DNA of 64,000 nucleotides. Origin: an uncultured Lentisphaeria bacterium. Lineage in GTDB: Bacteria; Fidelibacterota; UBA8477; JABMPR01. Under the pieces are notes generated by a model, which was given only the letters and a program-made list of their open reading frames with translations, was not told where the DNA came from and did no database searches. The DNA lies in contig CAZDVD010000004.1 in NCBI GenBank assembly GCA_964508765.1, forward strand, positions 66,784-130,783, given 5' to 3'. Position numbers and translations under genes: made by a program. Of this stretch, positions 1 through 53,867 are shown one piece after another (position 1 is the first letter of the stretch; each line of letters opens with the position of its first letter).

Positions 1-1045
1 TGGTGGAGAAAGCATAGAGAAAAGGTGCATCTGCTTTCTGGGACAATTCACTGAAACGTGCATTCAACATTTCGTGGTAAATCCGTTCCACAATATTATC
101 ACGATATTCACCGGCGGTGCGATCAACCCGAGCAGGATGTTTAAAAAGAATATTCACACTGGAACGGGTCGCTTCAGGATCAGAGGCAACAGCATATAAT
201 ACTTCGGCATGACCCGGTGCATCAAAAACAGTTCTTTCCCTGGTTTCAGATCGTTTTGGAATGGCTCCAAAAAGCGCTTTAATCCTGGCTTCAATATCAG
301 CAGGATCAAAATCTCCGACGGCGACAACAGCCATAAGATCTGGACGATACCAGTCCTTGTAAAAACGTCTTACTGTTTCATAACTGGCGTTCTCGATGAC
401 ATCCATAGACCCAATGGGGAGTCTGTCTGCATAACGAGAACCCTTGAACAGGATAGGGATTTGTTTGTCAAAAATACGTTGACCAGCACCCTGGCCCAAA
501 CGCCATTCTTCAATAACAACTCCACGTTCTTTGTCAATTTCTTCACCTTCAAGACTCACTTTGTGAGCCCAGTTTTCTAAAATCTTAAAACCTGTTGCCA
601 TCTGGTTGACACTATCAGTGGGAACCTGAAGCATATATACGGTTTCATCAAAACTTGTATATGCATTAAGATCGGGACCGAAACGCATTCCAATACCTTC
701 CAGATAGTTCACCAGATCCTGCTTGGGGAAATCTTCTGTACCGTTGAAGGCCAGATGTTCCAGGAGATGAGCCAAACCCAATTGGTCTTCATCTTCCAGT
801 ATGGAACCAGCATTAATAACCAGACGCAATTCAGCGCGATTCTCTGGTTTACTGTTTATCTTGATAAAATATTTTAAGCCATTGTCCAGTTGTCCTTCGA
901 TCAAACTGGGATCGACTGGCATTTGAGCGTTTAAGTCAATACTACTTTCAACAGCATCCTGACCTGTAAAAACACAGGCTGATAGTACTAGAGTGAGTGC
1001 GACCAGAAGTGACAGAAGACCTAGATGTGATCGTGAGCGGTGCAT
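1..1045 (-). CDS. M16 family zinc peptidase (insulinase/PqqL-like), N-terminal part; the gene runs off the window start
   Basis: Hand translation of the minus strand from the ATG at 1045-1043 gives MHRSRSHLGLLSLLVALTLVLSACVF (a lipoprotein-type signal with LSAC), followed by GLAHLLEHLAFNGT, the inverted HxxEH zinc motif of M16 peptidases. No stop occurs before position 1, so the gene is absent from the ORF track and the + and - ORFs at 209-580 are shadow frames. Confidence 0.75.
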   Translation of the reverse strand, partial: MHRSRSHLGLLSLLVALTLVLSACVFTGQDAVESSIDLNAQMPVDPSLIEGQLDNGLKYFIKINSKPENRAELRLVINAGSILEDEDQLGLAHLLEHLAFNGTEDFPKQDLVNYLEGIGMRFGPDLNAYTSFDETVYMLQVPTDSVNQMATGFKILENWAHKVSLEGEEIDKERGVVIEEWRLGQGAGQRIFDKQIPILFKGSRYADRLPIGSMDVIENASYETVRRFYKDWYRPDLMAVVAVGDFDPADIEARIKALFGAIPKRSETRERTVFDAPGHAEVLYAVASDPEATRSSVNILFKHPARVDRTAGEYRDNIVERIYHEMLNARFSELSQKADAPFLYAFST

Positions 1046-1173
1046 ATACATTTCTCCCTTAATTCGATATCAAAAAATTGCCTGCCAGTATAATTCTAAA
1101 CTGATGGGAATGTTATGTTTACTTGCTCACAGTAAAATAACGAGAAAAACAAGTATATCGTGTGAAAATGGCC

Positions 1174-1884
1174 TTATTTTGATGACTCGGCGACCAGCCA
1201 TTTGAATAAATCAATACCGACAATATCATTCGTTTCAGATTCGGGATGCCATTGAACTGCAATGAGGGGAATGGAGTTGTCTTTGGGTTCCAACACTTCA
1301 ATAAGTCCATCTGAACTTCGACCAGCTATACTCAAAGTTCCTGGTACATCCCTGACCGCCTGATGGTGAGAACTGTTTGCATCCACCTGCAATTGACCTG
1401 TCAGTTTATGGAGGAAGGACCCCTCTTCCAGCATGACGTCATGACGGGCTTCAAACCAATCCCCGATTTTGTGAACCAGCGGCTTTTTTGTTTGCGCTGG
1501 AATATCCTGATACAGAGATCCGCCTAAAAATACATTCACTTCCTGCATACCCAGACAGATAGCCAGAGTCGGTATTTTGTGCTCCCAGATATATTCAAAT
1601 ATCTGTCGATCATGTTCACCACGTCTTAGATGGAAAGGGTTTGGTGTCAGAGGGTCGCTGGACTCCCCATAATACTTGGGGTGCAGATCGTCTCCACCAG
1701 TGAGAACAATACCATCCAGTTTCTGGATGAGCTGAACCAAGTCTGTTTGCTCGATTATTGGAGGTATCAATACGGGAAGACCACCGGCGCGCTGAACGCT
1801 ATCCGTATATGATTTACCCAGGATACTTCTATCCATTTCCTTGTGTTCATAATATGAAGGAGTTAATCCGATGAGCGGCTTCAT
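1174..1884 (-). CDS. class I glutamine amidotransferase-like / gamma-glutamyl-gamma-aminobutyrate hydrolase family (PuuD-like, peptidase C26)
   Basis: 236 aa. A catalytic Cys lies in the LAICLGMQ context and a His in VQWHPE, the usual C26/GATase1 triad pattern. The start overlaps the upstream amidohydrolase stop (1881-1884). Confidence 0.75.
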   Translation of the reverse strand: MKPLIGLTPSYYEHKEMDRSILGKSYTDSVQRAGGLPVLIPPIIEQTDLVQLIQKLDGIVLTGGDDLHPKYYGESSDPLTPNPFHLRRGEHDRQIFEYIWEHKIPTLAICLGMQEVNVFLGGSLYQDIPAQTKKPLVHKIGDWFEARHDVMLEEGSFLHKLTGQLQVDANSSHHQAVRDVPGTLSIAGRSSDGLIEVLEPKDNSIPLIAVQWHPESETNDIVGIDLFKWLVAESSK

Positions 1885-3455
1885 ACTTTTTTCCCATCCA
1901 TGTAAACTGCCCTCACCAATCCCTCAGGAATTTCATCAACAGCATCGAGATGTTGAAAGTCAGGATCAAGGATGACAAAATCAGCAAGATGCCCGGCTTT
2001 TAACGTGCCGAGATCATGTTCACGAAAGCCTGCGAAGGCGGCATGATGTGTATGTGCTTTTACTGAGTCAACCATGCCCACTGCTTCATTCATATACCAA
2101 CCTGCCCGATGAATGGCTCCGTGAATAGTGGCAATGGGATCAGCTGGTGACACTGGCCAATCCGAGCCAAAAGCCAGTAAAGCATCAGTTTTCTGTAGTG
2201 ACTGGAAGGGATAGGCATAATCACAGCGGTTTCCCAGCAATTTTTCGCCATATAGTGCATCATCCACGCAATGGGCGGGTTGAACCGAAGCAATGATTCC
2301 CAGTTGGGCAAATCGAGATTGGTCATGGGGATGAATGTGCTGGGCATGCTCAATACGGAAGCGACGATCACGGGGACCATTCTCTTTGATAACCGATTCA
2401 TAAACATCCAATACTTCACGCACTGCGCGGTCACCGATGGCATGGATGACTGTTTGATAACCCAGCTTATCAGCCTCGGCTATCGTCTCTCGAATCAACG
2501 CAACATTTTTCCATTGATTGTCATAGATTCCTGAGGATTCGGGGCTATCCTCGTAAGGATCCAACATAAGGGCAGTATGGGAGCCAAGGCTACCATCGCA
2601 AAAACCTTTTAATCCCATATATTGAAAATACTCGCCTTCATGGATACCCGCTTCGATAAAGGTTTTCATCTCCTGCCATTCCAGAATCGGAGTATAGGCA
2701 GTTACTCGTACTTTAAGCTTTCCCTGACGAGCCATATCCTGGAGAAATCGAAAGTGATTCATATCGTAGATCATATCACCCACAGAAGTGACCCCGCGTT
2801 CCAGTAAATAATTTTGAGCAGCATCCAGATTATTGATAAGCTCTGCTTCAGACTCATCAGGCATTTTTTGAAACACTATCTCCATCGCGGCATCTCGCAG
2901 GATGCCTGTGGGTTGTCCATCTTCATCTTTATCTATGACGCCACCATAGGGGTTAGGAGTCTCCGAATTGATACCGGCCAGTTCGAGGGCTGCTGTGCTG
3001 GCTATGGCTGAATGTCCATCATGACGCGTAAGTAGCATGGGGTGCCCGGGTGCTGCTTCATCGAGCCACTTACGCTGAGGAAAGCTGTGATCATTAAAAT
3101 GGTGCTCGTTCCAGCCCCCACCTTTTAGCCAGGAACCAGTTTGACGACCCTTAGCAAATTTTCTTACGATATCTATGAATTCTTTTTTTGATCTAGCATC
3201 ATGGGCTGGAATTGTGAGCAGGGACTCCCCACCCCACAAAAAATGGACATGGGCATCAATAAAGCCTGGTACAACTACGGCACCCTCTAAATCGATGGTT
3301 TCTGTTTCTGCACTAATATGCTTGCTAAGATCATTTCCTACAGCTAGTATTGATTTGCCACTTGTGGCCAGTTGTGAAACCTGGGTTCTTTCAGCATCCT
3401 GGGTAAGAATGATGCCATTAACATATAAATTTTCGGCAATCTGCATATTTATCAA
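1881..3455 (-). CDS. metal-dependent amidohydrolase (Amidohydro_3 family)
   Basis: 524 aa. The HVHFLWGG metal-binding motif is near the N-terminus and the length and overall pattern fit large amidohydrolases. It overlaps both flanking genes by 4 bp, indicating translational coupling. Confidence 0.7.
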   Translation of the reverse strand: MINMQIAENLYVNGIILTQDAERTQVSQLATSGKSILAVGNDLSKHISAETETIDLEGAVVVPGFIDAHVHFLWGGESLLTIPAHDARSKKEFIDIVRKFAKGRQTGSWLKGGGWNEHHFNDHSFPQRKWLDEAAPGHPMLLTRHDGHSAIASTAALELAGINSETPNPYGGVIDKDEDGQPTGILRDAAMEIVFQKMPDESEAELINNLDAAQNYLLERGVTSVGDMIYDMNHFRFLQDMARQGKLKVRVTAYTPILEWQEMKTFIEAGIHEGEYFQYMGLKGFCDGSLGSHTALMLDPYEDSPESSGIYDNQWKNVALIRETIAEADKLGYQTVIHAIGDRAVREVLDVYESVIKENGPRDRRFRIEHAQHIHPHDQSRFAQLGIIASVQPAHCVDDALYGEKLLGNRCDYAYPFQSLQKTDALLAFGSDWPVSPADPIATIHGAIHRAGWYMNEAVGMVDSVKAHTHHAAFAGFREHDLGTLKAGHLADFVILDPDFQHLDAVDEIPEGLVRAVYMDGKKV

Positions 3456-4264
3456 AGTAGATTCTGACGCGCCTGGACCAATGCCTCAATCCGCTGAGGA
3501 TCGGGTTCATTCTTCCAGTTTCCGTCCTTTTTGAAATAGCTACCCACGATAAATGCGTCTGCCATATCAATGATTTGAGGTAGACCAGTTGGCGTTACTC
3601 CACTCCCTACTAGAACTGGAAGTTGTGCAGAAGCATATACACCACCAAGCTCATCTTGATTTACTGGTTTGCCTGTATGGGTCCCGGTGATAATGACACC
3701 ATCACTGAGAAAAAACTCCGCTGCTTCCACCGTATCCTCCAGGGACACATCTGATGTCATGGCATGACTACTATGCTTTTTCTTGATATCGGTGAATATG
3801 TGAATCTGATCGGCACCGATATGCTTCCGAAAGCGCAGGAGCTCACCAGCGTCGGATTGAAGCAATCCTTCATCAGCCATATGGCCAAAAACAAAACCCT
3901 CCGCTCGGATAAATTGTAATTCGGCAGCCTGAGCAACCGATAGAGCGGCCTGATTTGCTCCGGCTAGAATCTGGAGTCCCATGGGGAGTTCACTAACGGC
4001 ACGCACCTCTGAGCATATCCGGGTCAGGGTGGAGGTGATTTCTGGACCTACCTCTCGATTCAAATAGGGTACGTCATGCATATTTTCCAGCATGATGGCT
4101 TGCATTCCACTGGTAGCCAGAACTTTTGCTTCTTTCACTGCCTGGGCAGCAATTTCAGAAACAGACAAATGGTTTTGAGGGGTTCCTGGTAGAGCCTGCA
4201 CATGGATCATACCAATGAGACTCTTCTTCTCTGGAAATAAATTAGAAAACTTGGGTGTATTCAT
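3452..4264 (-). CDS. BtpA/SgcQ family TIM-barrel protein
   Basis: 270 aa, with N-terminal LIGMIHVQALPGTP and the glycine-rich TIM-barrel signature of BtpA/SgcQ proteins. It is the first gene of a three-gene overlapping operon. Confidence 0.65.
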   Translation of the reverse strand: MNTPKFSNLFPEKKSLIGMIHVQALPGTPQNHLSVSEIAAQAVKEAKVLATSGMQAIMLENMHDVPYLNREVGPEITSTLTRICSEVRAVSELPMGLQILAGANQAALSVAQAAELQFIRAEGFVFGHMADEGLLQSDAGELLRFRKHIGADQIHIFTDIKKKHSSHAMTSDVSLEDTVEAAEFFLSDGVIITGTHTGKPVNQDELGGVYASAQLPVLVGSGVTPTGLPQIIDMADAFIVGSYFKKDGNWKNEPDPQRIEALVQARQNLL

Positions 4265-6104: not shown

Positions 6105-8350
6105 TCTTTCTCTTCCTTTATCAACTTATTTCTATTCAACCAGAACCGCTGCTCCTGGTTACCAACCTGCAATAGAAATGACCCATCCTCCAACACAGTC
6201 TGTCCCAACTTATCGGGAAAACTTAAGTCCCTCTCAGGATGTAACTCAAATTGATACGTGACGGTTTCATTGGGTTGGATATTCTTTTTCTCAAAGTAAA
6301 CCAGCTCTTTTATTGGTCTGGTAATTGATCCTACCTCATCAGCCACAAACCACAATACAGCCTCTTTCCCCGCACGATCTGAAGTGTTGGTAACGTCCAC
6401 TGATATCTTGATTGGAGCAGATCCCGAAGTTAGTGAAGTGTCCATTTTGAGATTTGTATAACTAAACTCAGAATAACTCAGACCCTCACCAAAACTTGCT
6501 ATGCTATAGCGTTTTAACTCATCTGAAACCTGTCTAATCGTAGAATATTCTGATCGTTTATGATTGTACGAGATTATATGGCCAGATTTTTTGGGGTAGG
6601 TAAATGCCATTTTTCCCGAAGGATTTACTTCTCCTGAGATTATTTCTGCGATGGCTTGCGCACCATAAATACCAGGTAGCCCGGCAAAGAGAACAGCTTC
6701 AATCTCATCATATACATCTGGAATCAAGCGGGGGCGTCCCTCCGTTAGTATGAGTACAACAGGCTTATTGGTTGCTATTGCTTCTTTTATTAGCGTGAGC
6801 TGAATTACATCGAGAGTGAGGTCATCGATACTCCCGCCCGTTTCTGCATAAGCATGATCTTCTCCAGTAGCGATGACAATAATATCTGCTTTTCGCGCAG
6901 CCTTCTTGATTGATCGCTTGCCCTGGTAGAGGAGTTTCTCTGAGCCAAACTCCTTTTCAAGGGCGTCTTTTATTGTCAACATATCTTCAGGAAACCAGCG
7001 ATCGCTATCCGCGGCAAAGCGGTAAGTCCATCCACCACATAGTGAAACCTTTTTATCATGAGTAAACCCCGTCAGTAGGATTTTCTTATCCTTCAGGGGC
7101 AGTGTTGCCTTTTCATTCTTCATTAATACCATCGACTCACGAGCGGTCTGTAGAGCCAGCTCAATATTCTGAGGGGAATTGATTTTATCGATATATTCAG
7201 TGGTGGGCATATAGAATTCAAATAATCCCAGATCCTGTTTCACCTTCAATATGCGCCGCACTGATTCATCAATACGTGACATAGGAATCCGGCCTTCTTC
7301 CACCAATTCCTTGAGGTATACACAGTAACTGGTATCAAGAGGCACCATTGACATGTCAACACCAGCCATGATAGCCTGAAAAGTTGCCTCTTTCTCATCT
7401 TCAGCTATAAAATGCATGGTTTCCAATGCTTTGATATCCAACCAGTCTGTCACGGCGATACCCTCAAAACCAAGTTCATCCCTGAGTATTTTTGTTAAGA
7501 TTTCATATGAGGCGTGTACAGGAATGCCGTTAATCTCACCACTGTTTATCATAATGGTAGCAGCTCCTGCATCGATGGCCGCCTTAAAAGGGGGGAGGAA
7601 AAATTCGCGAAGAATCTGATCTGGGATTTCTGCAGGGGATCGATCCCACCCCGATTTTGGATCGGAGTATCCCAGATAATGTTTTGCACAAGCCGCTACT
7701 TTATACGGTTTGGAGGCTGATTCATTTTGAAGTCCATTGACAACAGCCACACCCATTTGACTGGTTAAATATGGATCCTCACTAAAGGTCTCATAGAACC
7801 GACCCCAACTTTTGGCTTTGCCAATTCCAAGCACAGGTCCAAACACCCAATTGTGACCGAGGTGAGCCGTTTCGGAAACGGTTGTGATGGCAGCGTTATA
7901 GGCATGGGTCGTATCAAAACTACAACCCACATTCATATTGTGAGGGAAAATAGTACCGTTTTTTAGATAGCTCGCACCATGGACATGGTCAATCCCGTAT
8001 AAAATTGGAATCTCTGAGTATTCTGCATTGATGCTTTGAATGGTACTGGTTACGTACACCCAGTTTTCAGGAGTAACTGCACGTCCATTTAGAAAGGATC
8101 CGATATGCCAATTTTTGACATAGTCGATGACTTTAGCTGTATCCAATTCATAATCTGTCACCTCGCCATAATTTCGGGCAATACGATCCTTGACCAGGGT
8201 GGTGATATTAAGTTGGGTCATTTGGCCAATTTTCTGTTCCAGGGTCATTTCAGTTAGAAATTTATCGATCTTTGATTCTGTATTTTCTGCTGAGAGCAGC
8301 TGAAATGAGGTAAGTAGTAAAAGTAATATAATGCGGAAATATTTAGACAT
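6101..8350 (-). CDS. glycoside hydrolase family 3 (beta-glucosidase/BglX-like), secreted
   Basis: 749 aa with a signal peptide. The GH3 N-domain motifs GIDHVHGASYLKNGTIFPHNMNVGCSFD and ...ITDWLDIKAL (catalytic Asp region) are present, and the C-terminal fibronectin-like domain fits the length. The stop overlaps the epimerase start. Confidence 0.85.
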   Translation of the reverse strand: MSKYFRIILLLLLTSFQLLSAENTESKIDKFLTEMTLEQKIGQMTQLNITTLVKDRIARNYGEVTDYELDTAKVIDYVKNWHIGSFLNGRAVTPENWVYVTSTIQSINAEYSEIPILYGIDHVHGASYLKNGTIFPHNMNVGCSFDTTHAYNAAITTVSETAHLGHNWVFGPVLGIGKAKSWGRFYETFSEDPYLTSQMGVAVVNGLQNESASKPYKVAACAKHYLGYSDPKSGWDRSPAEIPDQILREFFLPPFKAAIDAGAATIMINSGEINGIPVHASYEILTKILRDELGFEGIAVTDWLDIKALETMHFIAEDEKEATFQAIMAGVDMSMVPLDTSYCVYLKELVEEGRIPMSRIDESVRRILKVKQDLGLFEFYMPTTEYIDKINSPQNIELALQTARESMVLMKNEKATLPLKDKKILLTGFTHDKKVSLCGGWTYRFAADSDRWFPEDMLTIKDALEKEFGSEKLLYQGKRSIKKAARKADIIVIATGEDHAYAETGGSIDDLTLDVIQLTLIKEAIATNKPVVLILTEGRPRLIPDVYDEIEAVLFAGLPGIYGAQAIAEIISGEVNPSGKMAFTYPKKSGHIISYNHKRSEYSTIRQVSDELKRYSIASFGEGLSYSEFSYTNLKMDTSLTSGSAPIKISVDVTNTSDRAGKEAVLWFVADEVGSITRPIKELVYFEKKNIQPNETVTYQFELHPERDLSFPDKLGQTVLEDGSFLLQVGNQEQRFWLNRNKLIKEEKE

Positions 8351-43127: not shown

Positions 43128-44036
43128 CTAAACCAGGCCTAATAGGATAGAACGATACTTGCTCTCTGCATCATCAGAGCGGCTCACAAGAAGAATGGGC
43201 ACACGGGCTCCAACAATGACTCCTCCAATTTTGCAACCCCCCAAAACGGAGAGCCCTTTCACAAGATGATTGGCTGCTGTCGTATTGGGCATAAGGAAGA
43301 CATCGATCTCCCCCGATATTTCAGAATCCAGACCTTTTTTCATGGCTGCCTTTTTGGAGAGAGCGACGTCTGGTGCAATGGGTCCTTCGATAGAAACCCT
43401 TTTTGATAAGTTCTTAACCACATTCTGAGCGACAACCGTCTCAGGAATTTTATCACTCACATTCTCCACGAGAGTCATCATTCCAAAACGCGGGTCATCA
43501 ATACCAAGTTGCTTCAAGTATTGAGTGTTATTTACTATCATTTGTTCAAAAACATGCTCATCGAGATGAAGATTTATACCGCCGTCACTAATGAAGAGAA
43601 GCTTGTGATAATAGGGAGATTCGATGACAGCAATATGGTTCAGCAGTTCACCCTGACGTAAACCTGTCTCCTTATCTAGGATGGCCCTTAACAATTCACC
43701 TGTCTGAATCCTGCCCTTCATCAACAGATCAGCCCGGCCAGCATGAATGTGCTTGATTGCATCATCAGCTGGATTTTGACTATCTACGATTTCAAAAGCT
43801 GCTACATCCGGTGGAATAAGTGATTCAATTTTTCGGGCATCCCCAAATAGTATGAATTGAGCAAGACCTTCTTCCTGGGCGCGTGTGGCTACTTGAATGA
43901 GTACTGGATCTTCAGCAGCAACAACAGCAACCCGCTTAGGTGTGGCGTCTTTGACTAATTGATGAAGTTCTTGGAAACTGGATATCATATTTCGTTGCGT
44001 GTGTTGTGTATGAGCCGAAGATCTCAACAAGCTCAA
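43128..44036 (-). CDS. phosphate acetyl/butyryltransferase (PTA_PTB family)
   Basis: 302 aa. RVAVVAAEDPVLIQVATRAQEEGLAQFILFGD matches the Pta/Ptb N-terminus. The probable true start is the internal Met (MISSFQEL, ~43988). Confidence 0.75.
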   Translation of the reverse strand: MSLLRSSAHTQHTQRNMISSFQELHQLVKDATPKRVAVVAAEDPVLIQVATRAQEEGLAQFILFGDARKIESLIPPDVAAFEIVDSQNPADDAIKHIHAGRADLLMKGRIQTGELLRAILDKETGLRQGELLNHIAVIESPYYHKLLFISDGGINLHLDEHVFEQMIVNNTQYLKQLGIDDPRFGMMTLVENVSDKIPETVVAQNVVKNLSKRVSIEGPIAPDVALSKKAAMKKGLDSEISGEIDVFLMPNTTAANHLVKGLSVLGGCKIGGVIVGARVPILLVSRSDDAESKYRSILLGLV

Positions 44037-44087
44037 TTATCGGCCAAATCTGAACATTGAGCTTGTCGAAATATCTGATTCTATAAA

Positions 44088-44687
44088 TTATTCTCCCAGA
44101 AAGGAGCGAATACCAAATTTTATGAGCAGTTGCTGAGTATCGATATCGTTGACATCAGTACCTTTTTCGAAATTGTACTCTGCCTCAACTGTGAGACCCA
44201 CATTTTTTGCGAGATTTAATAAGAGACCAGCACTGGCAACCAGACCGAGCTCAGATTCATCCCTGAAAATTTCATCATCATTATAGAGAGTTTTATTCAC
44301 GAGGTAGTTTGCACCCCCTTTGATAAAGGGGGTTAGTTCGCTATTTTTTCCACCGAAAAAGAAATATACCCTTGGTCCAAGTGACAGGGTGACATTTTCA
44401 AGAACATTGGGATCGTCCTCATCACCGCTTTCATCCATTTCCTTTCCATAGCCCAGATCAATTCCAGCTGCAAACTGGGGAAACAAAAATAAAGCGATAT
44501 CAGAATTGATGCCCCATACTGAGGATCTCAAGTCCTCACTCAGATCCGTTTGATAAGATCCTGTTCCTGAGATCATAATAGTTCCAGAGCCCCGGGATGT
44601 TGAATAGCTTGATTGAGCAAACGCTGCGGTGGCGAATGTCAAAACAGTGAGTGTCATAAAGATTTTTTTCATATTTTTCTCCTTCAT
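44088..44687 (-). CDS. outer-membrane beta-barrel protein (OmpW/porin-like)
   Basis: 199 aa with a signal peptide (MKKIFMTLTVLTFATAAFA). It shows the alternating amphipathic beta-strand pattern and a C-terminal aromatic-rich terminal strand. Confidence 0.5.
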   Translation of the reverse strand: MKEKNMKKIFMTLTVLTFATAAFAQSSYSTSRGSGTIMISGTGSYQTDLSEDLRSSVWGINSDIALFLFPQFAAGIDLGYGKEMDESGDEDDPNVLENVTLSLGPRVYFFFGGKNSELTPFIKGGANYLVNKTLYNDDEIFRDESELGLVASAGLLLNLAKNVGLTVEAEYNFEKGTDVNDIDTQQLLIKFGIRSFLGE

Positions 44688-44784
44688 TAACCAGTACTAA
44701 TTAAAATCCACAAAAAGTAGCCTGTCTTCAATGTTTATATGTGATGGTGATCATTTTTTATCTGAGTTGTGATTTCAAACACAA

Positions 44785-45126
44785 TTAGTCCCAATTCTCA
44801 CTTCTGAACTTGTTTATGCGCACATCCGTTCTGGTGAGCAAGCCTTCCTTGAGCATGGGCTCGATTTGATCAACAAAACTGTCAATTTTTGGAATCCTTC
44901 CAACAAACTCCAGCAGAAGAGGTAAATTATCGGACATGCGGAGGATTTTCATTGAATGAATCTCACCATGTGCGCCAAAACCTTCTCTACCCCGAATGAC
45001 AGTGCCGCCAGATAATCCATTCTCCAGAGCTATTTCCAGAAGGAGCTCATATAAAGCGCGACCCTCATATTTATCATCCTCTCCAATAAATATGCACAAC
45101 TTTTGTCCGGTATAATCTTCATTCAT
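44785..45126 (-). CDS. DUF190 (COG1993, P-II-like fold) protein
   Basis: 113 aa. KLCIFIGEDDKYEGRALYELLLEIALENGLSGGTVIRGREGFGAHG...NLPLLLEFVG is the DUF190 pattern. It is a paralogue of the N-terminal domain of the next gene. Confidence 0.7.
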   Translation of the reverse strand: MNEDYTGQKLCIFIGEDDKYEGRALYELLLEIALENGLSGGTVIRGREGFGAHGEIHSMKILRMSDNLPLLLEFVGRIPKIDSFVDQIEPMLKEGLLTRTDVRINKFRSENWD

Positions 45127-45283
45127 GATGTTCCCTGCAAACTCTAAAAAGGTTCAAAAAACTTCACAACAATTTGCACGAATGATACGAATCTAAAACA
45201 ATAAATCAAATTACTTCATTGGTTTCTTTAGATTTTTTGTAGAACAAGGGAATTGTATATCAAAGATTGTTTTTTGTGTTTAA

Positions 45284-46498
45284 TCACTTTTTAAATAGCT
45301 CTGAAAAATAATTTTTCATATCTTCTTCTTTGTTATCCTTATCCTGAATCTTCTGGTCTTTACTGGCACTTTCACCCTGTTCATCCCCCGATGAATCAAC
45401 CGGCTCTTTATCCGAAGTTGTTTTACCCACAGAATCTATATCTGTGTCAACCATACTGGCCCCGCCGACCTCTTTAAGCATATCGTCAAAAGTGCTTTCA
45501 AATTTCTCGTTACGCTCATCAAATAACTTGTCAATATCTTCTTCTGTCTTCGGTTCTGCAGATTCAGTTCCATTAGATTTATCCTCCACGGTTCCGTGTG
45601 AGTCATCCATTTCGAACTTGTCCGCACTACTTTCTTCAGCCTGCGTTTCACTCATATCTGTCAATTGGTATACTGGATCGTCTTCATTAGGTCCTTCATC
45701 AGGTCCTTCATCAATAAATGAATCTCTTTCAGCATCAGGAGCATCATTCACAGCATTTTCTTGGATATGATTGTCATCCATCGAAGTATCTGGTTCGTCC
45801 TCATCTCCCTCCGCTCCAACAAATGAATCCCCTGCAACGGGGGGATCAGGAACCTCTTTTACTTCATCTTCACGAATGCTCTCTGGGTCTGTATCCAAAG
45901 ATTCAAAGGCAGGGCTGGAATTGTCGTCGTCATCCTCAAATGAAGGAATCTCGATATGAGGTTCAGCGGTATCAACCTCGTCTTCCTCTGTCGTCTGATC
46001 CTGATCCAGTTCAAGAAATTCAGATTCACTTTTTTTATCTTTATCCACCTTAAATTCCTGGCCTGGTGGGTGTGAGTCGGGGATGTCTGCCCCTTCAACA
46101 TCTTCATCAAATATTTGTGATTGATCCTCGTTTTCCTGGTCTTGAAAATCGGTAGTGTCTTCATCGGTTGAGTTGAATTTGGTGATCCGGACATCTGTTC
46201 TGGTAAAAAGCCCATCTTTTATCATCGGTTGAATACGTTCGATATATCTATCAATTCTATTCGTCATGCCCTGAAATTCCAAAACCACAGGTAAGTTTTC
46301 AGAGGACCTAAGGATCTTTAGCCTGGTGGATTCATCCTGAGCTCCAAAAAAACCTTTATCCCCTATGGTGACAGTGCCACCTGACAAACGGCTATTGAAG
46401 GCAATCTCTAAAAGCAGTTCATAAAGAACGATGCCTTCATACTTATCGTTTTTACTGATAAAAATACAGAGCTTCTCGCCTGGGTAATCTTCATGCAT
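45284..46498 (-). CDS. DUF190 (P-II-like) domain fused to a ~290-aa poly-acidic low-complexity C-terminal tail
   Basis: 404 aa. The first ~110 aa are paralogous to the protein at 44785-45126 (KLCIFISKNDKYEGIVLYELLLEIAF...GGTVTIGDKGFFG...NLPVVLEFQG). The remainder is D/E/S/T-rich with no TM segment or motif. Confidence 0.65.
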   Translation of the reverse strand: MHEDYPGEKLCIFISKNDKYEGIVLYELLLEIAFNSRLSGGTVTIGDKGFFGAQDESTRLKILRSSENLPVVLEFQGMTNRIDRYIERIQPMIKDGLFTRTDVRITKFNSTDEDTTDFQDQENEDQSQIFDEDVEGADIPDSHPPGQEFKVDKDKKSESEFLELDQDQTTEEDEVDTAEPHIEIPSFEDDDDNSSPAFESLDTDPESIREDEVKEVPDPPVAGDSFVGAEGDEDEPDTSMDDNHIQENAVNDAPDAERDSFIDEGPDEGPNEDDPVYQLTDMSETQAEESSADKFEMDDSHGTVEDKSNGTESAEPKTEEDIDKLFDERNEKFESTFDDMLKEVGGASMVDTDIDSVGKTTSDKEPVDSSGDEQGESASKDQKIQDKDNKEEDMKNYFSELFKK

Positions 46499-46516
46499 AT
46501 TTGAATTCCATTTTCA

Positions 46517-46915
46517 TCACCACAACTTAGCGATACTAACCCCAGCCCACACGGCAATAAGTGTCCCAACAATATTGGCAAGAATATTCAAACCAGCAAA
46601 CATCCACTCTCCATTTCGCATGAGATTGAGTGTCTCTAAAGAGAAGGTTGAATAGGTGGTAAACGCACCTAGCACACCAACTAGGAGAAACAATCTCATC
46701 TCCTGATTTACAATCATCTTTTCCAGAAAAAGCGTGGCAAAGAGTCCCAGAACAAAACTACCCAACAGGTTAACAGATAAGGTCCCCAGGGGGAATCTGT
46801 CGCTCAATTTCTGAGCCAGACCACTGATCCAATAACGTCCGACAGCACCCAAAAATCCACCCAGGCCAATAGCAATAATTTTACTCATATCCATCATTTT
46901 ATTGCTCCACTTCAT
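46517..46915 (-). CDS. crcB: fluoride channel CrcB/Fluc
   Basis: 132 aa with 4 TM helices. Motifs GGFLGAVGRY, GTLSVNLLGSFVLG and GVLGAFTTYSTFSLE match the CrcB signature. Confidence 0.85.
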   Translation of the reverse strand: MKWSNKMMDMSKIIAIGLGGFLGAVGRYWISGLAQKLSDRFPLGTLSVNLLGSFVLGLFATLFLEKMIVNQEMRLFLLVGVLGAFTTYSTFSLETLNLMRNGEWMFAGLNILANIVGTLIAVWAGVSIAKLW

Positions 46916-47753
46916 GGGGCAGTGGAATCAAGTAGACTTCCTCACAGACCACGGGTTTCATACTTTTAAAATATAACCATCCCGCGCTGAAGAGCACCAC
47001 CGAGACAATAATCCAGGTAAGCCCCAGGTCACCCAGTGTGGATGCTTCTTCATCCAACCCCAAAAACAGACCGGAAAATGCTGAAAGATTAAACAGGGCA
47101 TGGGTTAGCATGGGAATCAGAATATTGCCTGTCTTCGCCATAAGCCAGGCCAACAAAACACCCAAGGCGAGGAGCTCTAACATCGCTGGCAAATAAAACA
47201 GGTAGCCCACATGGAAGAGGGCAAAAATGACGGTGGGAATCACCATAGATGGTATGAGTGATCCAAAATGATAAAACAAGCTTTGCTGAAGCAGTCCCCT
47301 GAAAAGGAATTCTTCAACAATCGGGGCAACCAGGATTGCTGCAGAAATCAGCACAATATTGGCAAGAATACCCCCATCAAAGAGTGTTTCGTCCAAAGCC
47401 CGTAAAAAGTCTGGTACAGGGAAATATGGTAAAATAAGGACCTCAAATACAGAAACCAGACCAATGATTCCACCAATAAATAATACCGACATGGCCACAG
47501 TCACTGGAGACACCTTATGGAAGGGAAGCACATCAAAAAAGCCAAGCTTACGCTGGTTTAATATGAACAGGGGTGGAACCAGAATAGCGATTTCACTAAA
47601 GAGCATGACGAGTCGATCAAGGAGTTCATTGTTCTCAATTCCGGAAATCATACTCTGGAGGCTCAGGCCAACAAATAAACCTAGAAACATACTTGCAGCC
47701 ACCATGAGGTAGGCTTCTCGCGTACTAAAAATATGGAATGAAAATCGTTTCAA
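46899..47753 (-). CDS. CPBP family intramembrane glutamic endopeptidase (CAAX protease/Abi)
   Basis: 284 aa polytopic protein with motif 1 PIVEEFLFRGLLQ and motif 2 FALFHV. The track start is TTG; the probable ATG is at 47705. The 3' end overlaps crcB by 17 bp. Confidence 0.7.
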   Translation of the reverse strand: MKRFSFHIFSTREAYLMVAASMFLGLFVGLSLQSMISGIENNELLDRLVMLFSEIAILVPPLFILNQRKLGFFDVLPFHKVSPVTVAMSVLFIGGIIGLVSVFEVLILPYFPVPDFLRALDETLFDGGILANIVLISAAILVAPIVEEFLFRGLLQQSLFYHFGSLIPSMVIPTVIFALFHVGYLFYLPAMLELLALGVLLAWLMAKTGNILIPMLTHALFNLSAFSGLFLGLDEEASTLGDLGLTWIIVSVVLFSAGWLYFKSMKPVVCEEVYLIPLPHEVEQ

Positions 47754-47866
47754 TCAACGCCATCTTTTCTAAGAGTTATTTGCTTCTAGAAACAAAAACG
47801 GGGCGAAAATAAAAGTTGAGATTACAACCATCACTTTCACCCCATGAGAATTGTCAGTGAGTCAGG

Positions 47867-48310
47867 TTATTCTTTAATAACCCAGACTTTAACTTCAGCT
47901 TTGATATCTGTGGCAACCTTGATGGGAACATTATAGATACCCAGTGCTTTGAGGGGTTCCTCAAGCAGGATGTCACGTTTGTCAATCTCATAGCCTTTTG
48001 CGGCCAGGAGTTCAGCAATATCAGCAGCTGTAACGGCACCAAAAACCTTATCTTCCTCACCAACCTTCACAGAGGTTTCGAGGGAGATGTTTCCGAGCTT
48101 GGCAGCCAGTTGCTCAGCCTGTGCAGTTGCACGGGCGTTGCGGTTATCCTTCAATTTTTTCTCTTCTTCGAAAACACGAGAAAAACTACGGGTTGCTGGA
48201 TAAGCAAGCTTCTGAGGAATTAGATAATTCCTGGCATAACCATCTTTTACATTGACGGTTTTGCCAGCCTGCCCTAGAGATTCAATATCTTCACGTAAAA
48301 TAATTTTCAT
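47867..48310 (-). CDS. rplI: 50S ribosomal protein L9
   Basis: 147 aa. MKIILREDIESLGQAGKTVNVKDGYARNYLIP is the canonical L9 N-terminus. Confidence 0.9.
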   Translation of the reverse strand: MKIILREDIESLGQAGKTVNVKDGYARNYLIPQKLAYPATRSFSRVFEEEKKLKDNRNARATAQAEQLAAKLGNISLETSVKVGEEDKVFGAVTAADIAELLAAKGYEIDKRDILLEEPLKALGIYNVPIKVATDIKAEVKVWVIKE

Positions 48311-48326
48311 GATCAGATCCTTTCTC

Positions 48327-48560
48327 TTAGGCGTTCTTTACGTCATTGGTATATGGCAGTAAAGCAATATTCCGGGCACGTTTGATAGCTGTTACCAGTG
48401 ATCTTTGATGCAGGGAGCAAGTACCTGTAATACGACGTGGTAAAATTTTTCCCTGCTCTGTCACAAAGCGACGTAGCATGGAGGGGTTTTTGTAATCAAT
48501 TTCCATTTTCTTATTTTCACAGAATTTGCAAATCTTTTTTCTATAGGTGAACATTTTCAT
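48327..48560 (-). CDS. rpsR: 30S ribosomal protein S18
   Basis: 77 aa. [38 protein letters not shown]...LVTAIKRAR is canonical S18. Confidence 0.9.
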
Positions 48561-48591
48561 ATAGAATTCTCTCTTTCTCTAATCCGGCCGA

Positions 48592-49254
48592 TTACTCTGC
48601 GTCAGCAGGCTTTTCAGCTTCTTCTTCAGGTTTTTCGTCTGCGGATTCTTCAACTGCAGGTTCAGCTTCAGCTACGGCAGGCTCTTCAGCCACAATTGCT
48701 TCTTCAACAACAACTTCAGTTGCTTCCTCTGTGACTTCAACCGGTGTCTCTTTAACCACTTCGGCTACTTCAGCTTTTTCTTCAGCTGCTTCAACAACAA
48801 CTTCAGCGCCATCTTCAGATGCTACTGCTGCTGGTGCTTCAGCTGGTTTTTCTTCATAGCGTCTTGGTCTGTGACCATCTCTGGAATCTCTAGAATCTCT
48901 ACCTCCAGGACGTCTTCCACGGTCAGCCTCGAAAGCCTGTGGAACAGTCAGTGTTTCAAAATCAGGAAACTCATCGAGACGAATAGTCATATAATGAAGC
49001 ACGCCTGATTCGATTTCAAATTCACGAGCAAGCTCAGAGATATCTGGGTTTTCGCCTTGAAAATGCATTAAAACATAATTTCCATAGCGTTCTTTATCGA
49101 TAGCGTAAGCCAGCTTGCGTTTGCCCCAATGTTGGGTATTTGCAAGCTCACCGCCTACATTCTTCAGGACTTCTTCCACTCTTGCAACAACGGCGGAGAT
49201 TCCTTCACTATCAAAGTTGATATTTACAATATAAAGGCACTCATACTTTTTCAA
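48592..49254 (-). CDS. rpsF: 30S ribosomal protein S6 with a ~110-aa Glu/Ala/Pro-rich C-terminal extension
   Basis: The N-terminal 100 aa are canonical S6 ([11 protein letters not shown]...[10 protein letters not shown]). The remainder is a low-complexity acidic tail. Confidence 0.85.
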
Positions 49255-52051: not shown

Positions 52052-52729
52052 TTATTTTTCGTCACTACCTGTATCAGATTCTTTTTTCTCACCGTCTTCT
52101 GATTCTGATCCTTCTTCATCCTCGAATTCCAGATCATCTTCATCAACTTCAACAACAACTTCTTCCATTTTCTGTGGTAGAACGACAGAAATGATTGTGA
52201 TGTCTTCAGCAATGAGAACTTCATAGTCATCACTCTGGATATCACTGGCGTGGATACCGTCACCGATGTTCAATTCAGATACATCGACTTCAATGGAATC
52301 AGGTACATCCTCACCTTTACAGCGAACCACAACCTCATGGATAGGCTGCTGGAGAACACCACCTTCTTGTACACCAAGTGCCAGTCCATTAGCGATCACG
52401 GATACGGGAATTTCGATGATGTCACGAAGACGTACACCGAAGAAATCCATATGCAGGATTTTGTCTGTTACTGGATGCCATTGGACATCTTTCACCATGG
52501 CTCGGCGTTGCTCGCCGTCAATAGTGATGTTAAAAATTTGTTCTCCTGAATGCATAGCTTCGCGCAGATGTGTTTCGGTCATAACATAGGACTGAGCTTC
52601 TTCACCACCTGAATAGAAATTCACGGGGACATAGCCATTCCTGCGGAGTGCTTTTGCAGCTTTCCGACCAAATTCACTTCTCTGCTCAATCTGCAATTCG
52701 AAACGTTCTTTTTTCTTTGCTTGAGCCAT
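52052..52729 (-). CDS. rplY: 50S ribosomal protein L25/general stress protein Ctc with an acidic C-terminal tail
   Basis: 225 aa with a Ctc-form L25 N-terminal beta-barrel and C-terminal domain, followed by a D/E-rich tail. Confidence 0.85.
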   Translation of the reverse strand: MAQAKKKERFELQIEQRSEFGRKAAKALRRNGYVPVNFYSGGEEAQSYVMTETHLREAMHSGEQIFNITIDGEQRRAMVKDVQWHPVTDKILHMDFFGVRLRDIIEIPVSVIANGLALGVQEGGVLQQPIHEVVVRCKGEDVPDSIEVDVSELNIGDGIHASDIQSDDYEVLIAEDITIISVVLPQKMEEVVVEVDEDDLEFEDEEGSESEDGEKKESDTGSDEK

Positions 52730-53796: not shown

Positions 53797-53867
53797 TTCC
53801 GGGAGGAGGATTCGAACCCCCATGACCAGCTCCAAAAGCTGGTGTCCTACCTTTGAACGATCCCGGA
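53797..53867 (-). tRNA. tRNA-Gln (anticodon UUG)
   Basis: Hand-folded cloverleaf on the minus strand. The acceptor UCCGGGA/UCCCGGA has a U1-A72 pair typical of tRNA-Gln. The D-stem is GUUC/GGAC, the anticodon stem CCAGC/GCUGG with loop UUUUGGA (UUG), and the T-arm GGGGG-UUCGAAU-CCUCC. CCA is not encoded. Confidence 0.8.

What the first reader, a model, noticed from the sequence alone, without database searches (positions are those of the whole stretch)
44785..47753. crcB fluoride-channel operon carrying a CPBP protease and two tandem DUF190 (P-II-like) genes
All four genes are co-directional on the minus strand with near-zero or overlapping junctions; the CPBP 3' end overlaps the crcB start by 17 bp. 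CrcB/Fluc and DUF190 (COG1993) are a recurrent but functionally unexplained gene pair. Here DUF190 is duplicated and a CPBP (CAAX/Abi-type) intramembrane protease leads the operon. I could not find a fluoride riboswitch upstream of either candidate start. That suggests either non-riboswitch regulation or a function not strictly tied to fluoride. The locus offers a compact, testable model for what DUF190 proteins do next to fluoride channels.
Basis: partly seen in the sequence, partly recalled or inferred. Interest (0 to 1): 0.7.

Follow-up and report, generated by a model that had tools for sequence, protein, structure and literature searches.

The report
Marinimicrobial fluoride-channel cluster with variable DUF190 genes
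This is a real gene cluster, conserved in marine Marinimicrobia, that joins a membrane protease and a fluoride channel to small regulator-like DUF190 proteins; one DUF190 has lost family-signature residues and gained a 290-residue acidic tail, which makes the locus a moderately interesting variant of a known gene pairing.

Summary
All four genes exist on the minus strand, and the HMMs confirm them as CPBP/Rce1-like, CrcB and two DUF190.

Three details of the finding are wrong:
- One DUF190 is 404 aa, not small. It has a P-II-like domain plus a tail of about 290 aa that is 35% Asp/Glu and mostly predicted to be disordered.
- The two DUF190 genes lie 157 nt apart. That spacer holds a conserved promoter-like element.
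- The 17-nt CPBP/crcB overlap depends on which start codon is chosen. A start 1 nt after the CPBP stop fits the orthologs better.

No fluoride riboswitch was found in the window or in 14 orthologous loci. A positive control was detected, and most other crcB loci I checked lack one too.

The organism is a Neomarinimicrobiota (SAR406) bacterium. CPBP-crcB is conserved across the clade, down to 33% CPBP identity. The DUF190 slot varies among none, short only, short then long, long only, and long then short (seen only in this window's lineage).

The long paralog forms one derived clade. It has lost residues kept by the short copies and by both solved DUF190 structures, and its tail has no homolog elsewhere. 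The CrcB carries Tyr at a pore position where Phe-to-Tyr abolishes flux in E. coli Fluc-Ec2, but this variant also recurs in other phyla.

Verdict: a new variant of a known kind, of moderate interest.

The parts
47790..47844 (-). Conserved stem-loop plus T-run just after the rplI stop codon (47867). It looks like an intrinsic terminator and leaves only about 38 nt before the CPBP start codon.
   Evidence: RNAalifold on 12 orthologous intergenic regions gives 17 pairs, 8 of them with compensatory changes, followed by a T-tract. The alignment is and the sequence was read.
46899..47753 (-). CPBP (Rce1-like, glutamic-type) intramembrane protease, 284 aa from a TTG start. It has about 7 hydrophobic segments and all three catalytic motifs: EEFLFR at 147, FALFH at 177 and HALFN at 218.
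   Evidence: Pfam PF02517, E=4.3e-19. The N-terminal extension is conserved as protein across orthologs while the internal ATG is not. The discrete ortholog group holds 82 proteins at 51% identity or more. All NCBIfam subfamily hits fall below their cut-offs.
46517..46915 (-). crcB/Fluc fluoride channel. The ORF is 132 aa; the probable true start is the ATG at 46897 (126 aa), 1 nt after the CPBP stop. The pore motif reads TTYSTFS, with Tyr at the position of Phe80 in Fluc-Ec2.
   Evidence: Pfam PF02537 at 103.6 bits. TIGR00494 at 108 bits against a cut-off of 80.45. PDB Fluc-Ec2 and Bpe hits. K+R counts are 4 versus 3 on the two faces.
45284..46498 (-). Long DUF190 paralog ('L'), 404 aa. The P-II-like domain covers about residues 1-110 (roughly 46169-46498). 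The acidic tail covers residues 113-404 and holds conserved islands (NEDQSQIF; QLxDxSE; LFDExxExFExxFxxMLK) and a conserved C-terminal amphipathic helix (MKNYFSELFKK).
   Evidence: Pfam PF02641, E=3.6e-17, at residues 9-105. The alignment of 21 homologs shows the conserved islands. AF2 predicts beta-alpha-beta-beta-alpha-beta for residues 8-108, a disordered tail, and helices at 320-345 and 391-403. The tail is 35% D+E with net charge -79; the C-terminal hydrophobic moment is 0.54. The tail has no homolog outside this family.
45158..45217 (-). Conserved non-coding block inside the 157-nt spacer upstream of the short DUF190. It contains a sigma-70-like TTGATT-N16-TATCAT at 45209-45182.
   Evidence: The promoter scan flags the site, but such sites are not enriched over shuffles. 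The block is 85% identical over 60 nt to the crcB-to-short-DUF190 spacer of L008, L010, L007 and L014. The hexamers are conserved in 5 genomes.
44785..45126 (-). Short, canonical DUF190 ('S'), 113 aa, P-II-like.
   Evidence: Pfam PF02641, E=1.5e-29. PDB homologs are PH1503 (2DCL), E=3.2e-22, and TM0021 (1O51), E=4.7e-15. It is 59.6% identical to the long paralog's domain and keeps the family-signature residues.
44088..44687 (-). Small outer-membrane beta-barrel protein, the conserved downstream neighbour. It lies 10-20 nt after the long DUF190 in every sister genome where the long DUF190 comes last, and may belong to the same transcript there.
   Evidence: Pfam PF13505, E=6.6e-9. It is present in every orthologous locus that reaches that far.

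Best explanation
This is a lineage-specific version of the known crcB-DUF190 fluoride-resistance module, fixed in marine Neomarinimicrobiota (SAR406).

**Shown**
- A CPBP intramembrane protease gene with intact catalytic motifs abuts a single crcB gene. The pair stays together across the whole clade.
- Downstream is a slot for DUF190 (P-II-like) genes that has been remodelled repeatedly.
- The ancestral state is one short canonical DUF190.
- A duplication produced a long paralog. It lost family-signature residues in the first beta-alpha unit and at the base of the T-loop, and gained a clade-specific, mostly disordered acidic tail of about 220-320 aa. The tail ends in a conserved amphipathic helix.
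- No fluoride riboswitch is present.

**Inferred**
- CrcB forms a dual-topology homodimeric fluoride channel. It is expressed constitutively, or by read-through or re-initiation after the rplI terminator, which would suit seawater's constant fluoride.
- The short DUF190 is a trimeric cytoplasmic sensor or regulator that acts on the channel or on a fluoride-sensitive target, by analogy with GlnK and AmtB.
- The long paralog is a neofunctionalised version. Its C-terminal helix and the helix at residues 320-345 dock it to the membrane or to a partner protein through a long polyanionic tether.
- CPBP is co-expressed with the channel. Whether it acts on the channel or on the tail is unknown.
For: - **Family assignments:**
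- **Channel residues:** R19, T37, N41, F83 and E86 (Ec2 numbering) are invariant in all 118 aligned relatives, close orthologs and more distant homologs alike. K+R counts are balanced between the two faces, 4 versus 3.
- **Organism:** named Marinimicrobia hits.
- **CPBP-crcB adjacency:** present in every orthologous locus examined. These are 14 GTDB species genomes and further metagenome contigs. L091 is included: its CPBP is only 33% identical and its upstream synteny is broken, yet CPBP-crcB-DUF190-OMP-PTA persists.
- **Specificity of the link:** none of 66 distant CPBP loci in other phyla has crcB or DUF190 within 5 kb.
- **DUF190 slot variants:** none in L087 and L090. Short only in L015, L017-L020, L089 and L091. 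Short then long in L007, L008, L010, L011 and L014. Long only in L003, L005, L009 and L012. Long then short in the window's lineage alone.
- **Long paralog is derived:** in the tree, the long paralogs form one long-branched clade beside the short ones. They show GE(D/N)DK to SKNDK, EGR to EGI, RG..GFG to IG..GFFG, and loss of the loop His. The short copies, PH1503, TM0021 and the other single-copy DUF190s aligned mostly keep these residues.
- **Tail:** conserved islands, AF2 disorder plus two helices, composition and hydrophobic moment, and no homolog outside the family among 1.84 billion representatives.
- **Riboswitch:** none in the window or in 14 orthologous loci. RF01734 was detected in the Hymenobacter control at 41.2 bits.
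- **crcB-DUF190 pairing elsewhere:**. DUF190 is also flJ in the Streptomyces fluorination clusters, with duplicates (PMC9173684).
Against: - **No function is shown.** There are no expression, binding or transport data.
- **Synteny weakens the adjacency argument.** The whole neighbourhood (pth-hppA-rpsF-rpsR-rplI upstream, OMP-pta-tal-MFS downstream) is syntenic across the clade, so adjacency alone says little about a functional link between CPBP and crcB.
- **The pore carries Tyr.** The Ec2-F80 position is Tyr here, and F80Y abolishes flux in Ec2 (PMC5636608).
- **Symmetry mismatch.** A P-II-like trimer does not match the symmetry of a Fluc dimer, so a GlnK/AmtB-style plug is only an analogy.
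- **DUF190 is dispensable in some lineages.** Two lineages keep CPBP-crcB with no DUF190 at all.
- **The membrane-anchor idea is thin.** It rests only on a hydrophobic moment that 2.9% of shuffles also reach.
- **No promoter identified.** I could not find a convincing promoter for CPBP-crcB. Only about 38 nt separate the terminator T-run from the TTG start.
Confidence: 0.6

Rival explanations
1. The CPBP protease is a working partner of the module. It either processes the long DUF190, for example by cleaving or releasing its tail or C-terminal helix, or it acts as scaffold or quality control for the dual-topology Fluc subunits. Protease, channel and P-II-like protein would then form one regulated complex.
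For: - The CPBP stop and crcB start overlap or lie 1-2 nt apart in most genomes.
- The pair survives where upstream synteny is lost and CPBP identity has fallen to 33%.
- The catalytic motifs are intact and invariant.
- The nearest NCBIfam models include Mrt-type CPBPs, which process C-terminal sorting signals of neighbouring substrates.
- The long DUF190 has an invariant C-terminal motif.
Against: - All Mrt-type hits are far below their cut-offs (for example MrtJ at 43.6 against 75).
- The long DUF190 has no signal peptide and no C-terminal transmembrane segment of the kind Mrt substrates carry.
- CPBP-crcB exists in lineages with only the short DUF190 or with none, so the tail cannot be the ancestral substrate.
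- L020 and L087 have gaps of 86-120 nt between CPBP and crcB.
- No CPBP-crcB link exists outside this clade.
Confidence: 0.15
2. The cluster is not really about fluoride. The Tyr-bearing CrcB has altered selectivity or gating, and with DUF190 and CPBP it handles another small anion or signal. That would explain the missing riboswitch.
For: - Tyr replaces the first Phe-box residue in about 100 orthologs.
- F80Y in Fluc-Ec2 reduces flux more than 10,000-fold, and that study describes natural replacements of these Phe residues as rare (PMC5636608).
- No fluoride riboswitch in 15 loci.
Against: - Every other residue known to be essential is kept: R19, N41, F83 and E86, plus the TM3 motif.
- An ortholog with canonical Phe sits in the same synteny (L090).
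- Tyr also occurs in single-gene crcB loci of other phyla, and in one subunit of a Streptomyces crcB pair.
- Position 106, where Asn kills Ec2, is Asn, Ser, His or Thr in natural sequences that have canonical Phe boxes. Ec2 mutagenesis therefore does not transfer between backgrounds.
- The protein passes the curated CrcB equivalog threshold.
- Most crcB loci I scanned lack riboswitches.
Confidence: 0.08
3. The genes are only neighbours. CPBP, crcB, DUF190, the outer-membrane barrel gene and pta are kept together by slow genome rearrangement in a streamlined lineage, and only crcB-DUF190 is a functional pair.
For: - Synteny extends at least 6 genes on each side in most loci.
- The short DUF190 has its own conserved promoter-like element.
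- DUF190 can be lost without loss of CPBP-crcB.
Against: - CPBP-crcB stays joined when the upstream r-protein operon is replaced by a histidine-kinase gene.
- The junction is translationally coupled in most genomes.
- The terminator immediately upstream leaves little room for a separate crcB promoter, so the two genes are almost certainly co-transcribed.
Confidence: 0.17

Closest known systems
crcB-DUF190 (COG1993/UPF0166) gene pairs in bacteria and archaea. One example is the Hymenobacter sp. GOD-10R plasmid operon: fluoride riboswitch, CLC, crcB, DUF190, DUF190. Others are Cereibacter crcB-crcB-DUF190 and Streptomyces crcB-DUF190-crcB.
   Same: crcB is followed directly by one or two DUF190 genes on the same strand. 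Tandem DUF190 pairs with diverged signature residues also occur there.
   Different: - No riboswitch here.
- A CPBP gene leads the cluster.
- One DUF190 carries a roughly 290-aa acidic tail not found anywhere else.
- DUF190 copy number and order vary among orthologous loci.
Fluc-Ec2 and Fluc-Bpe, the structurally and functionally characterised dual-topology fluoride channels (PDB 5A43, 5NKQ)
   Same: - Same family, length and four-helix layout.
- R19, N41, F83 and E86 and the TM3 break motif are conserved.
- A single gene and balanced K+R fit a homodimer.
   Different: - Tyr at the F80 position and Asn at H106. Both changes abolish flux in Ec2.
- Val at T114, which is tolerated in Ec2 (PMC5636608).
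- Function was not tested here.
GlnK-AmtB, a P-II protein that regulates a co-encoded channel
   Same: A small P-II-fold protein is encoded next to a channel gene. The fold is supported by homology to PH1503 and TM0021 and by the AF2 model. The same analogy was proposed earlier for DUF190 proteins next to putative channels in Pelobacter (PMC3543383).
   Different: DUF190 is a separate family with no known ligand or target. Fluc is a dimer, not a trimer, so the T-loop plug geometry cannot be copied. The long paralog has lost the conserved loop residues.
Mrt-type and other bacterial CPBP intramembrane proteases (MrtJ, MrtS, myxosortase, MroQ)
   Same: Same Pfam family and the same three catalytic motifs. 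These are the best NCBIfam matches.
   Different: All scores are well below the curated cut-offs. No sorting-signal substrate is evident. This subfamily is a discrete Marinimicrobia-only group: 82 proteins at 51% identity or more, then nothing down to the E<=1e-10 limit of that search.

Membership tests
CrcB/Fluc fluoride channel (PF02537, TIGR00494) | HMM match above the curated threshold | tested here: met
   Pfam 103.6 bits against 32.9. TIGR00494 equivalog 108 bits against 80.45.
CrcB/Fluc fluoride channel (PF02537, TIGR00494) | Small four-helix protein of about 125 aa with little K+R bias (dual topology) | tested here: met
   126-132 aa with four hydrophobic segments. K+R is 4 on one face and 3 on the other, using a simple count.
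CrcB/Fluc fluoride channel (PF02537, TIGR00494) | Pore residues: TM2 Asn (N41), both Phe-box residues (F80, F83), TM1 Arg, TM3 Glu | tested here: inconclusive
   N41, F83, R19 and E86 are present, but F80 is Tyr. F80Y is inactive in Ec2. However, Tyr recurs naturally in single-gene crcB loci of other phyla.
CrcB/Fluc fluoride channel (PF02537, TIGR00494) | Fluoride-selective conduction or fluoride resistance | not testable with these tools
   Needs a flux assay or complementation.
DUF190 / UPF0166 (PF02641), P-II-like | HMM match above the gathering score | tested here: met
   Short copy 102.5 bits, long copy 62.9 bits, against a cut-off of 23.4.
DUF190 / UPF0166 (PF02641), P-II-like | Ferredoxin-like beta-alpha-beta-beta-alpha-beta P-II fold | tested here: met
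   The short copy matches solved PH1503 (2DCL) and TM0021 (1O51) by sequence. The AF2 model of the long copy gives E8-14, H20-35, E39-45, E71-77, H79-94 and E103-108 at pLDDT of about 70-80.
DUF190 / UPF0166 (PF02641), P-II-like | Signature residues shared by PH1503, TM0021 and most single-copy members: GE.DK, (R/K)PL, RG..GFG, loop His | tested here: not met
   This verdict applies to the long copy only; the short copy meets the feature. The long copy has SKNDK, EGI, IG..GFFG and no loop His. It is therefore a divergent member by HMM, not a canonical one.
CPBP / Rce1-like intramembrane protease (PF02517) | HMM match plus the EExxxR, FxxxH and HxxxN/D motifs in a polytopic membrane protein | tested here: met
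   69 bits against 22.4. EEFLFR at 147, FALFH at 177 and HALFN at 218, with about 7 hydrophobic segments. The motifs are invariant in orthologs.
Mrt-type sorting CPBPs (MrtJ, MrtS, myxosortase) and MroQ | Score above the NCBIfam equivalog cut-off | tested here: not met
   MrtJ 43.6 against 75, MrtS 36.9 against 130, Mrt_core 26.7 against 100, MroQ 18.7 against 270.
Fluoride riboswitch (Rfam RF01734, crcB motif) | Covariance-model match upstream of the operon | tested here: not met
   No match at the gathering threshold in the window, at E<=10 in 44000-48600, or in 14 orthologous loci. The model did detect the Hymenobacter control at 41.2 bits.

The most novel reading that the evidence does not exclude
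CPBP, the Tyr-variant Fluc and the DUF190 proteins form one regulated membrane complex peculiar to SAR406. The long DUF190 would be tethered to the membrane or to the channel by its C-terminal amphipathic helix through a polyanionic linker, and the CPBP protease would tune the complex by cleaving the tail or clearing unpaired Fluc subunits. That would be the first protein-level regulation described for a fluoride channel and the first function for DUF190. A smaller version of this reading: the clade is a natural, single-gene Fluc with Tyr in the Phe box that still conducts fluoride, which would contradict the strict Phe requirement inferred from Ec2.
Probability: 0.12. Interest if true: 0.7.

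Novelty: new variant of a known kind. Interest (0 to 1): 0.38.

Why it matters
DUF190 is a widespread P-II-like family with solved structures but no known function. Its only consistent clue is genomic linkage to fluoride channels and to fluorination clusters.

This clade offers a natural experiment. Orthologous loci carry zero, one or two DUF190 genes, and one paralog has shed conserved residues and gained a partner-docking type of tail. Comparing them could show which residues and partners matter.

The invariant Tyr in the Phe box of what appears to be a single-copy Fluc is a concrete test of how strict the fluoride-coordination chemistry really is.

The value is limited in three ways. The organism is uncultured, better-behaved crcB-DUF190 loci exist in culturable bacteria, and nothing here demonstrates that CPBP is functionally tied to the channel.

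Tried and rejected
- **Literature on DUF190 function.** I searched DUF190, COG1993, PF02641 and UPF0166; TM0021, PH1503, 1O51 and 2DCL; and Fluc with PII and GlnK. Only passing mentions turned up: flJ in fluorination clusters, and a speculative 'channel modulator' role in Pelobacter. No functional study was found. Two searches were swamped by prefix matches ('fluc' hit 'fluctuation', 'DUF190' hit 'DUF1908').
- **'The CrcB is non-functional or non-fluoride because of F80Y and H106N.'** Downgraded. Position 106 is naturally Asn, Ser, His or Thr, and Tyr80 recurs in lone crcB genes of other phyla.
- **'The short DUF190 is a recent re-duplication of the long one's domain.'** Rejected. The window's short copy groups with the short copies of other genomes, not with its neighbour. 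It also moved together with its own upstream spacer.
- **'The internal ATG (47705) is the CPBP start.'** Rejected on conservation.
- **'The acidic tail is a domain shared with other proteins.'** Rejected. Only 9 hits were found, and all eight full-length ones belong to the long-DUF190 family; the ninth is a 130-aa fragment.
- **CPBP against the PDB by sequence.** No hit.
- **Second crcB in the window.** None. Whole genomes could not be checked.
- **Two Rfam calls failed on the size limit** and were repeated with fewer loci.
- **Promoter for CPBP-crcB.** None was convincing. The generic scan is not enriched over shuffles.

Full report
**1. What is at the coordinates**

The minus strand of 44785-47753 carries four ORFs:

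| Coordinates | Length | Start |
|---|---|---|
| 46899-47753 | 284 aa | TTG |
| 46517-46915 | 132 aa | ATG |
| 45284-46498 | 404 aa | ATG |
| 44785-45126 | 113 aa | ATG |

- Pfam assigns them to Rce1-like/CPBP (PF02517, E=4.3e-19), CRCB (PF02537, E=8.2e-30), DUF190 (PF02641, E=3.6e-17, residues 9-105 only) and DUF190 (E=1.5e-29).
- CrcB also exceeds the curated NCBIfam equivalog threshold: TIGR00494 scores 108 bits against 80.45.
- The short DUF190 matches the solved structures PH1503 (2DCL, E=3.2e-22) and TM0021 (1O51, E=4.7e-15).
- CPBP has about seven hydrophobic segments and all three catalytic motifs: EEFLFR at 147, FALFH at 177 and HALFN at 218.
- The finding's accession 'PF02534' for CrcB is a slip; the correct accession is PF02537.

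**2. Corrections to the observation**

- *One DUF190 is not small.* It is a 404-aa protein. Its last 292 residues are 35% Asp+Glu and 8% Lys+Arg, with net charge -79.
- *Junctions are not uniformly tight.* The spacing is crcB, 18 nt, long DUF190 (L), 157 nt, short DUF190 (S), 97 nt, an outer-membrane beta-barrel gene.
- *The 17-nt overlap depends on the start codon.* It holds only if crcB starts at the ATG at 46915. Distant orthologs lack that N-terminal extension. Most homologs are 125-126 aa, which matches the ATG at 46897, 1 nt after the CPBP stop codon. Either way the two genes are tightly coupled.
- *The TTG start of CPBP at 47753 is supported.* The encoded N-terminal peptide (KRFSFHIFSTREAYL) is conserved as protein in all orthologs. 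The downstream ATG is replaced by Leu or Ile codons in distant ones.

**3. Regulation**

- Rfam finds no fluoride riboswitch in the window at the gathering threshold. It finds none at E<=10 over 44000-48600 and none in 14 orthologous loci.
- The same model detected a riboswitch (RF01734, 41.2 bits) upstream of a CLC-crcB-DUF190-DUF190 operon on a Hymenobacter plasmid. The negative result is therefore meaningful.
- It is not unusual, though. Four of the five non-Marinimicrobia crcB loci I scanned also lack one.
- A conserved hairpin plus T-run (about 47790-47844) lies between rplI and CPBP. It has 17 predicted pairs, 8 with compensatory changes across 12 genomes, and is most simply the terminator of the rpsF-rpsR-rplI operon.
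- Only about 38 nt remain before the TTG start, and I could not identify a promoter there. Transcription may depend on read-through or on a promoter overlapping the hairpin. This is unresolved.
- Part of the 157-nt spacer before S is conserved: 85% over 60 nt with the crcB-to-S spacer of four sister genomes.
- That conserved part contains TTGATT-N16-TATCAT (45209-45182), kept in five genomes. S probably has its own promoter.

**4. Organism and conservation**

- Homologs are named Candidatus Marinimicrobia/Neomarinimicrobiota.
- A scan of 185,579 species genomes with the CPBP alignment returned 14 Neomarinimicrobiota genomes with orthologs at 57-88% identity. It also returned 66 unrelated CPBP loci at 42% identity or less.
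- All 14 orthologous loci have rplI | CPBP-crcB-DUF190(s)-OMP-pta. The short contig L016 ends just after crcB.
- None of the 66 distant loci has crcB or DUF190 within 5 kb.
- The CPBP ortholog group is discrete: 82 proteins at 51% identity or more, then nothing down to the E<=1e-10 limit of that search.
- In L091 the CPBP is only 33% identical and the upstream gene is a histidine kinase instead of rplI. Even so, CPBP-crcB-DUF190-OMP-pta remains intact. This is the best evidence that CPBP-crcB is more than residual synteny.
- The downstream synteny is conserved as well, so the argument is not conclusive.

**5. The DUF190 slot is dynamic**

Orthologous loci show five states:

| State | Loci |
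|---|---|
| No DUF190 | L087, L090 |
| S only | L015, L017-L020, L089, L091 (the most distant lineages) |
| S then L | L007, L008, L010, L011, L014 |
| L only | L003/L013, L005, L009, L012 |
| L then S | the window and its near-identical contigs only |

- In a neighbour-joining tree rooted with PH1503, the L domains form one long-branched clade beside the S clade. The window's S groups with other S copies, not with its neighbour L.
- S and the L domain are 59.6% identical.
- S, PH1503, TM0021 and most single-copy DUF190s from other phyla share GE.DK, (R/K)PL, RG..GFG and a loop His. L has SKNDK, EGI, IG..GFFG and no loop His.
- I conclude that an ancestral single S was duplicated, and one copy evolved rapidly and acquired the tail. 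Unequal recombination between the paralogs then produced losses and the order swap seen here. The mechanism is an inference.
- The window's S travelled with its own upstream spacer, which fits that scenario.

**6. The tail of the long paralog**

- The 21-sequence alignment shows an almost invariant domain followed by a variable-length acidic region of 220-317 aa.
- Within it are conserved islands: NEDQSQIF just after the domain; QLxDxSE; LFDExxExFExxFxxMLK; and the C-terminus DKNHTEEDMKNYFSSLFKK. Y397, F398 and F402 are invariant.
- AlphaFold2 gives a P-II-like beta-alpha-beta-beta-alpha-beta domain with pLDDT of about 70-80 and a disordered T-loop at residues 48-66. The tail is below pLDDT 50 except for helices at 320-345 and 391-403.
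- The C-terminal 12 residues have a hydrophobic moment of 0.54, similar to the E. coli FtsA membrane-targeting helix computed the same way (0.57). Shuffles reach this value 2.9% of the time. This is suggestive only.
- A full HMMER scan of 1.84 billion representative proteins with the tail alone returned 9 hits. Eight are full-length members of this long-DUF190 family and the ninth is a 130-aa fragment. The tail is a clade-specific invention, not a shared domain.
- Within the window, only ribosomal proteins S6 and L25 have comparably acidic stretches.

**7. The channel**

- Aligned to Fluc-Ec2, the window's CrcB keeps R19, T37, N41, F83 and E86 and the TM3 motif. It has Tyr at F80, Asn at H106, Thr at S110 and Val at T114.
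- In Ec2, F80Y and H106N abolish flux (more than 10,000-fold), while T114V and S110A are active (PMC5636608).
- Tyr is invariant in about 100 Marinimicrobia orthologs.
- Four observations argue against reading this as loss of function:
  - The rest of the pore is under strict conservation.
  - A Phe-type ortholog sits in the same synteny (L090).
  - Tyr-type CrcBs occur as lone crcB genes in a Nitrospirales genome and next to a DUF190 in another metagenome contig.
  - Position 106 varies naturally, including Asn in sequences with canonical Phe boxes, so Ec2 point-mutant phenotypes are background-dependent.
- The homolog search is word-seeded, so I cannot give an unbiased frequency of Tyr.
- No second crcB is present in the 64-kb window. 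Whole genomes could not be checked.

**8. How it most likely works**

- *Shown:* the gene content, the family memberships, the conserved CPBP-crcB coupling, the absence of a riboswitch, the duplication and divergence of DUF190, and the nature of the tail.
- *Inferred, for the channel:* CrcB is a dual-topology homodimeric fluoride channel. Its K+R balance is 4 versus 3. It is expressed without fluoride-responsive RNA control.
- *Inferred, for S:* it is a trimeric P-II-like cytoplasmic regulator or sensor associated with the channel.
- *Inferred, for L:* it is a neofunctionalised paralog whose conserved helices dock it to a partner or to the membrane through a polyanionic linker.
- The GlnK-AmtB comparison is an analogy only, because trimer and dimer symmetries do not match.
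- Whether CPBP acts on this system is open. Its nearest NCBIfam relatives are C-terminal-signal-processing Mrt proteases, but all fall far below their cut-offs. CPBP-crcB also predates the tail.

**9. Comparison with what is known, and novelty**

- crcB-DUF190 pairing is recurrent. I saw crcB-crcB-DUF190 in Cereibacter, crcB-DUF190-crcB in Streptomyces, CLC-crcB-DUF190-DUF190 in Hymenobacter, and adjacency in Chroococcidiopsis.
- DUF190 is flJ of the Streptomyces fluorination clusters, with duplicates (PMC9173684).
- Three things are new here:
  - the CPBP partner conserved throughout a phylum-level marine clade;
  - a DUF190 paralog with degenerate signature residues and a unique acidic tail;
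  - a clade-wide Tyr in the Phe box.
- These are variations on a known module, not a new kind of system.
- I found no functional study of DUF190 in the searchable literature.

**10. Verdict**

- Novelty: a new variant of a known kind.
- Interest is about 0.38. The locus offers useful comparative leads for DUF190 and Fluc specialists, but nothing is demonstrably surprising, the host is uncultured, and the CPBP link is unproven.

Noticed in passing
window 47790-47844 (- strand): The hairpin plus T-run after rplI is unusually well conserved for a terminator. It keeps 17 pairs, 8 with compensatory changes, across genomes whose neighbouring CPBP proteins are only about 55% identical. It lies only about 38 nt before the CPBP start, so it could also act as an attenuator or processing site for the downstream genes.
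   Followed up: partly
window 48592-49254 (rpsF) and 52052-52729 (L25/Ctc), - strand: Ribosomal proteins S6 (220 aa) and L25 (225 aa) carry long acidic C-terminal extensions, with up to 40-42% D+E in a 60-aa window. They are the only other strongly acidic stretches among about 59 ORFs in the window. The S6 length varies from 180 to 251 aa among related contigs.
   Followed up: partly
L007 about 6190-6435 and L010 (crcB-to-short-DUF190 spacer): The spacers in these two sister genomes contain extra GC-rich insertions (for example GCCTGCCTTCGCCGAAGG...GCGCAGGCAG) that are absent from the window and from L008. They look like small inserted repeats.
   Followed up: no
window 44088-44687 (- strand) and orthologs: A small outer-membrane beta-barrel protein with a highly conserved C-terminal half (…NFEKGTDVNDIDTQQLLIKFGIRSFLGE) follows the DUF190 slot, or crcB itself where there is no DUF190, in every locus that reaches that far. 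The gap is only 10-20 nt in every sister genome where the long DUF190 comes last. It may be part of the same transcript, and its function is unknown.
   Followed up: partly
L094 (Hymenobacter sp. GOD-10R plasmid NZ_CP141185.1), locus 753-3718: This is an annotated operon: fluoride riboswitch, CLC-type channel, crcB, DUF190, DUF190. Both DUF190 copies deviate from the canonical RG..GFG..H signature. It would be a culturable alternative model for tandem DUF190 function.
   Followed up: partly
L015 (CAZOBQ010000005.1): This record is labelled 'uncultured Lentisphaeria', but it carries the full Marinimicrobia-type block (rplI-CPBP-crcB-DUF190-OMP-pta) with a CPBP 57% identical to the window's. The bin is probably misclassified.
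   Followed up: no
window 53797-53867 (- strand): A single tRNA gene (Rfam RF00005, 59 bits) is the only Rfam match at the gathering threshold in the 64-kb window.
   Followed up: no
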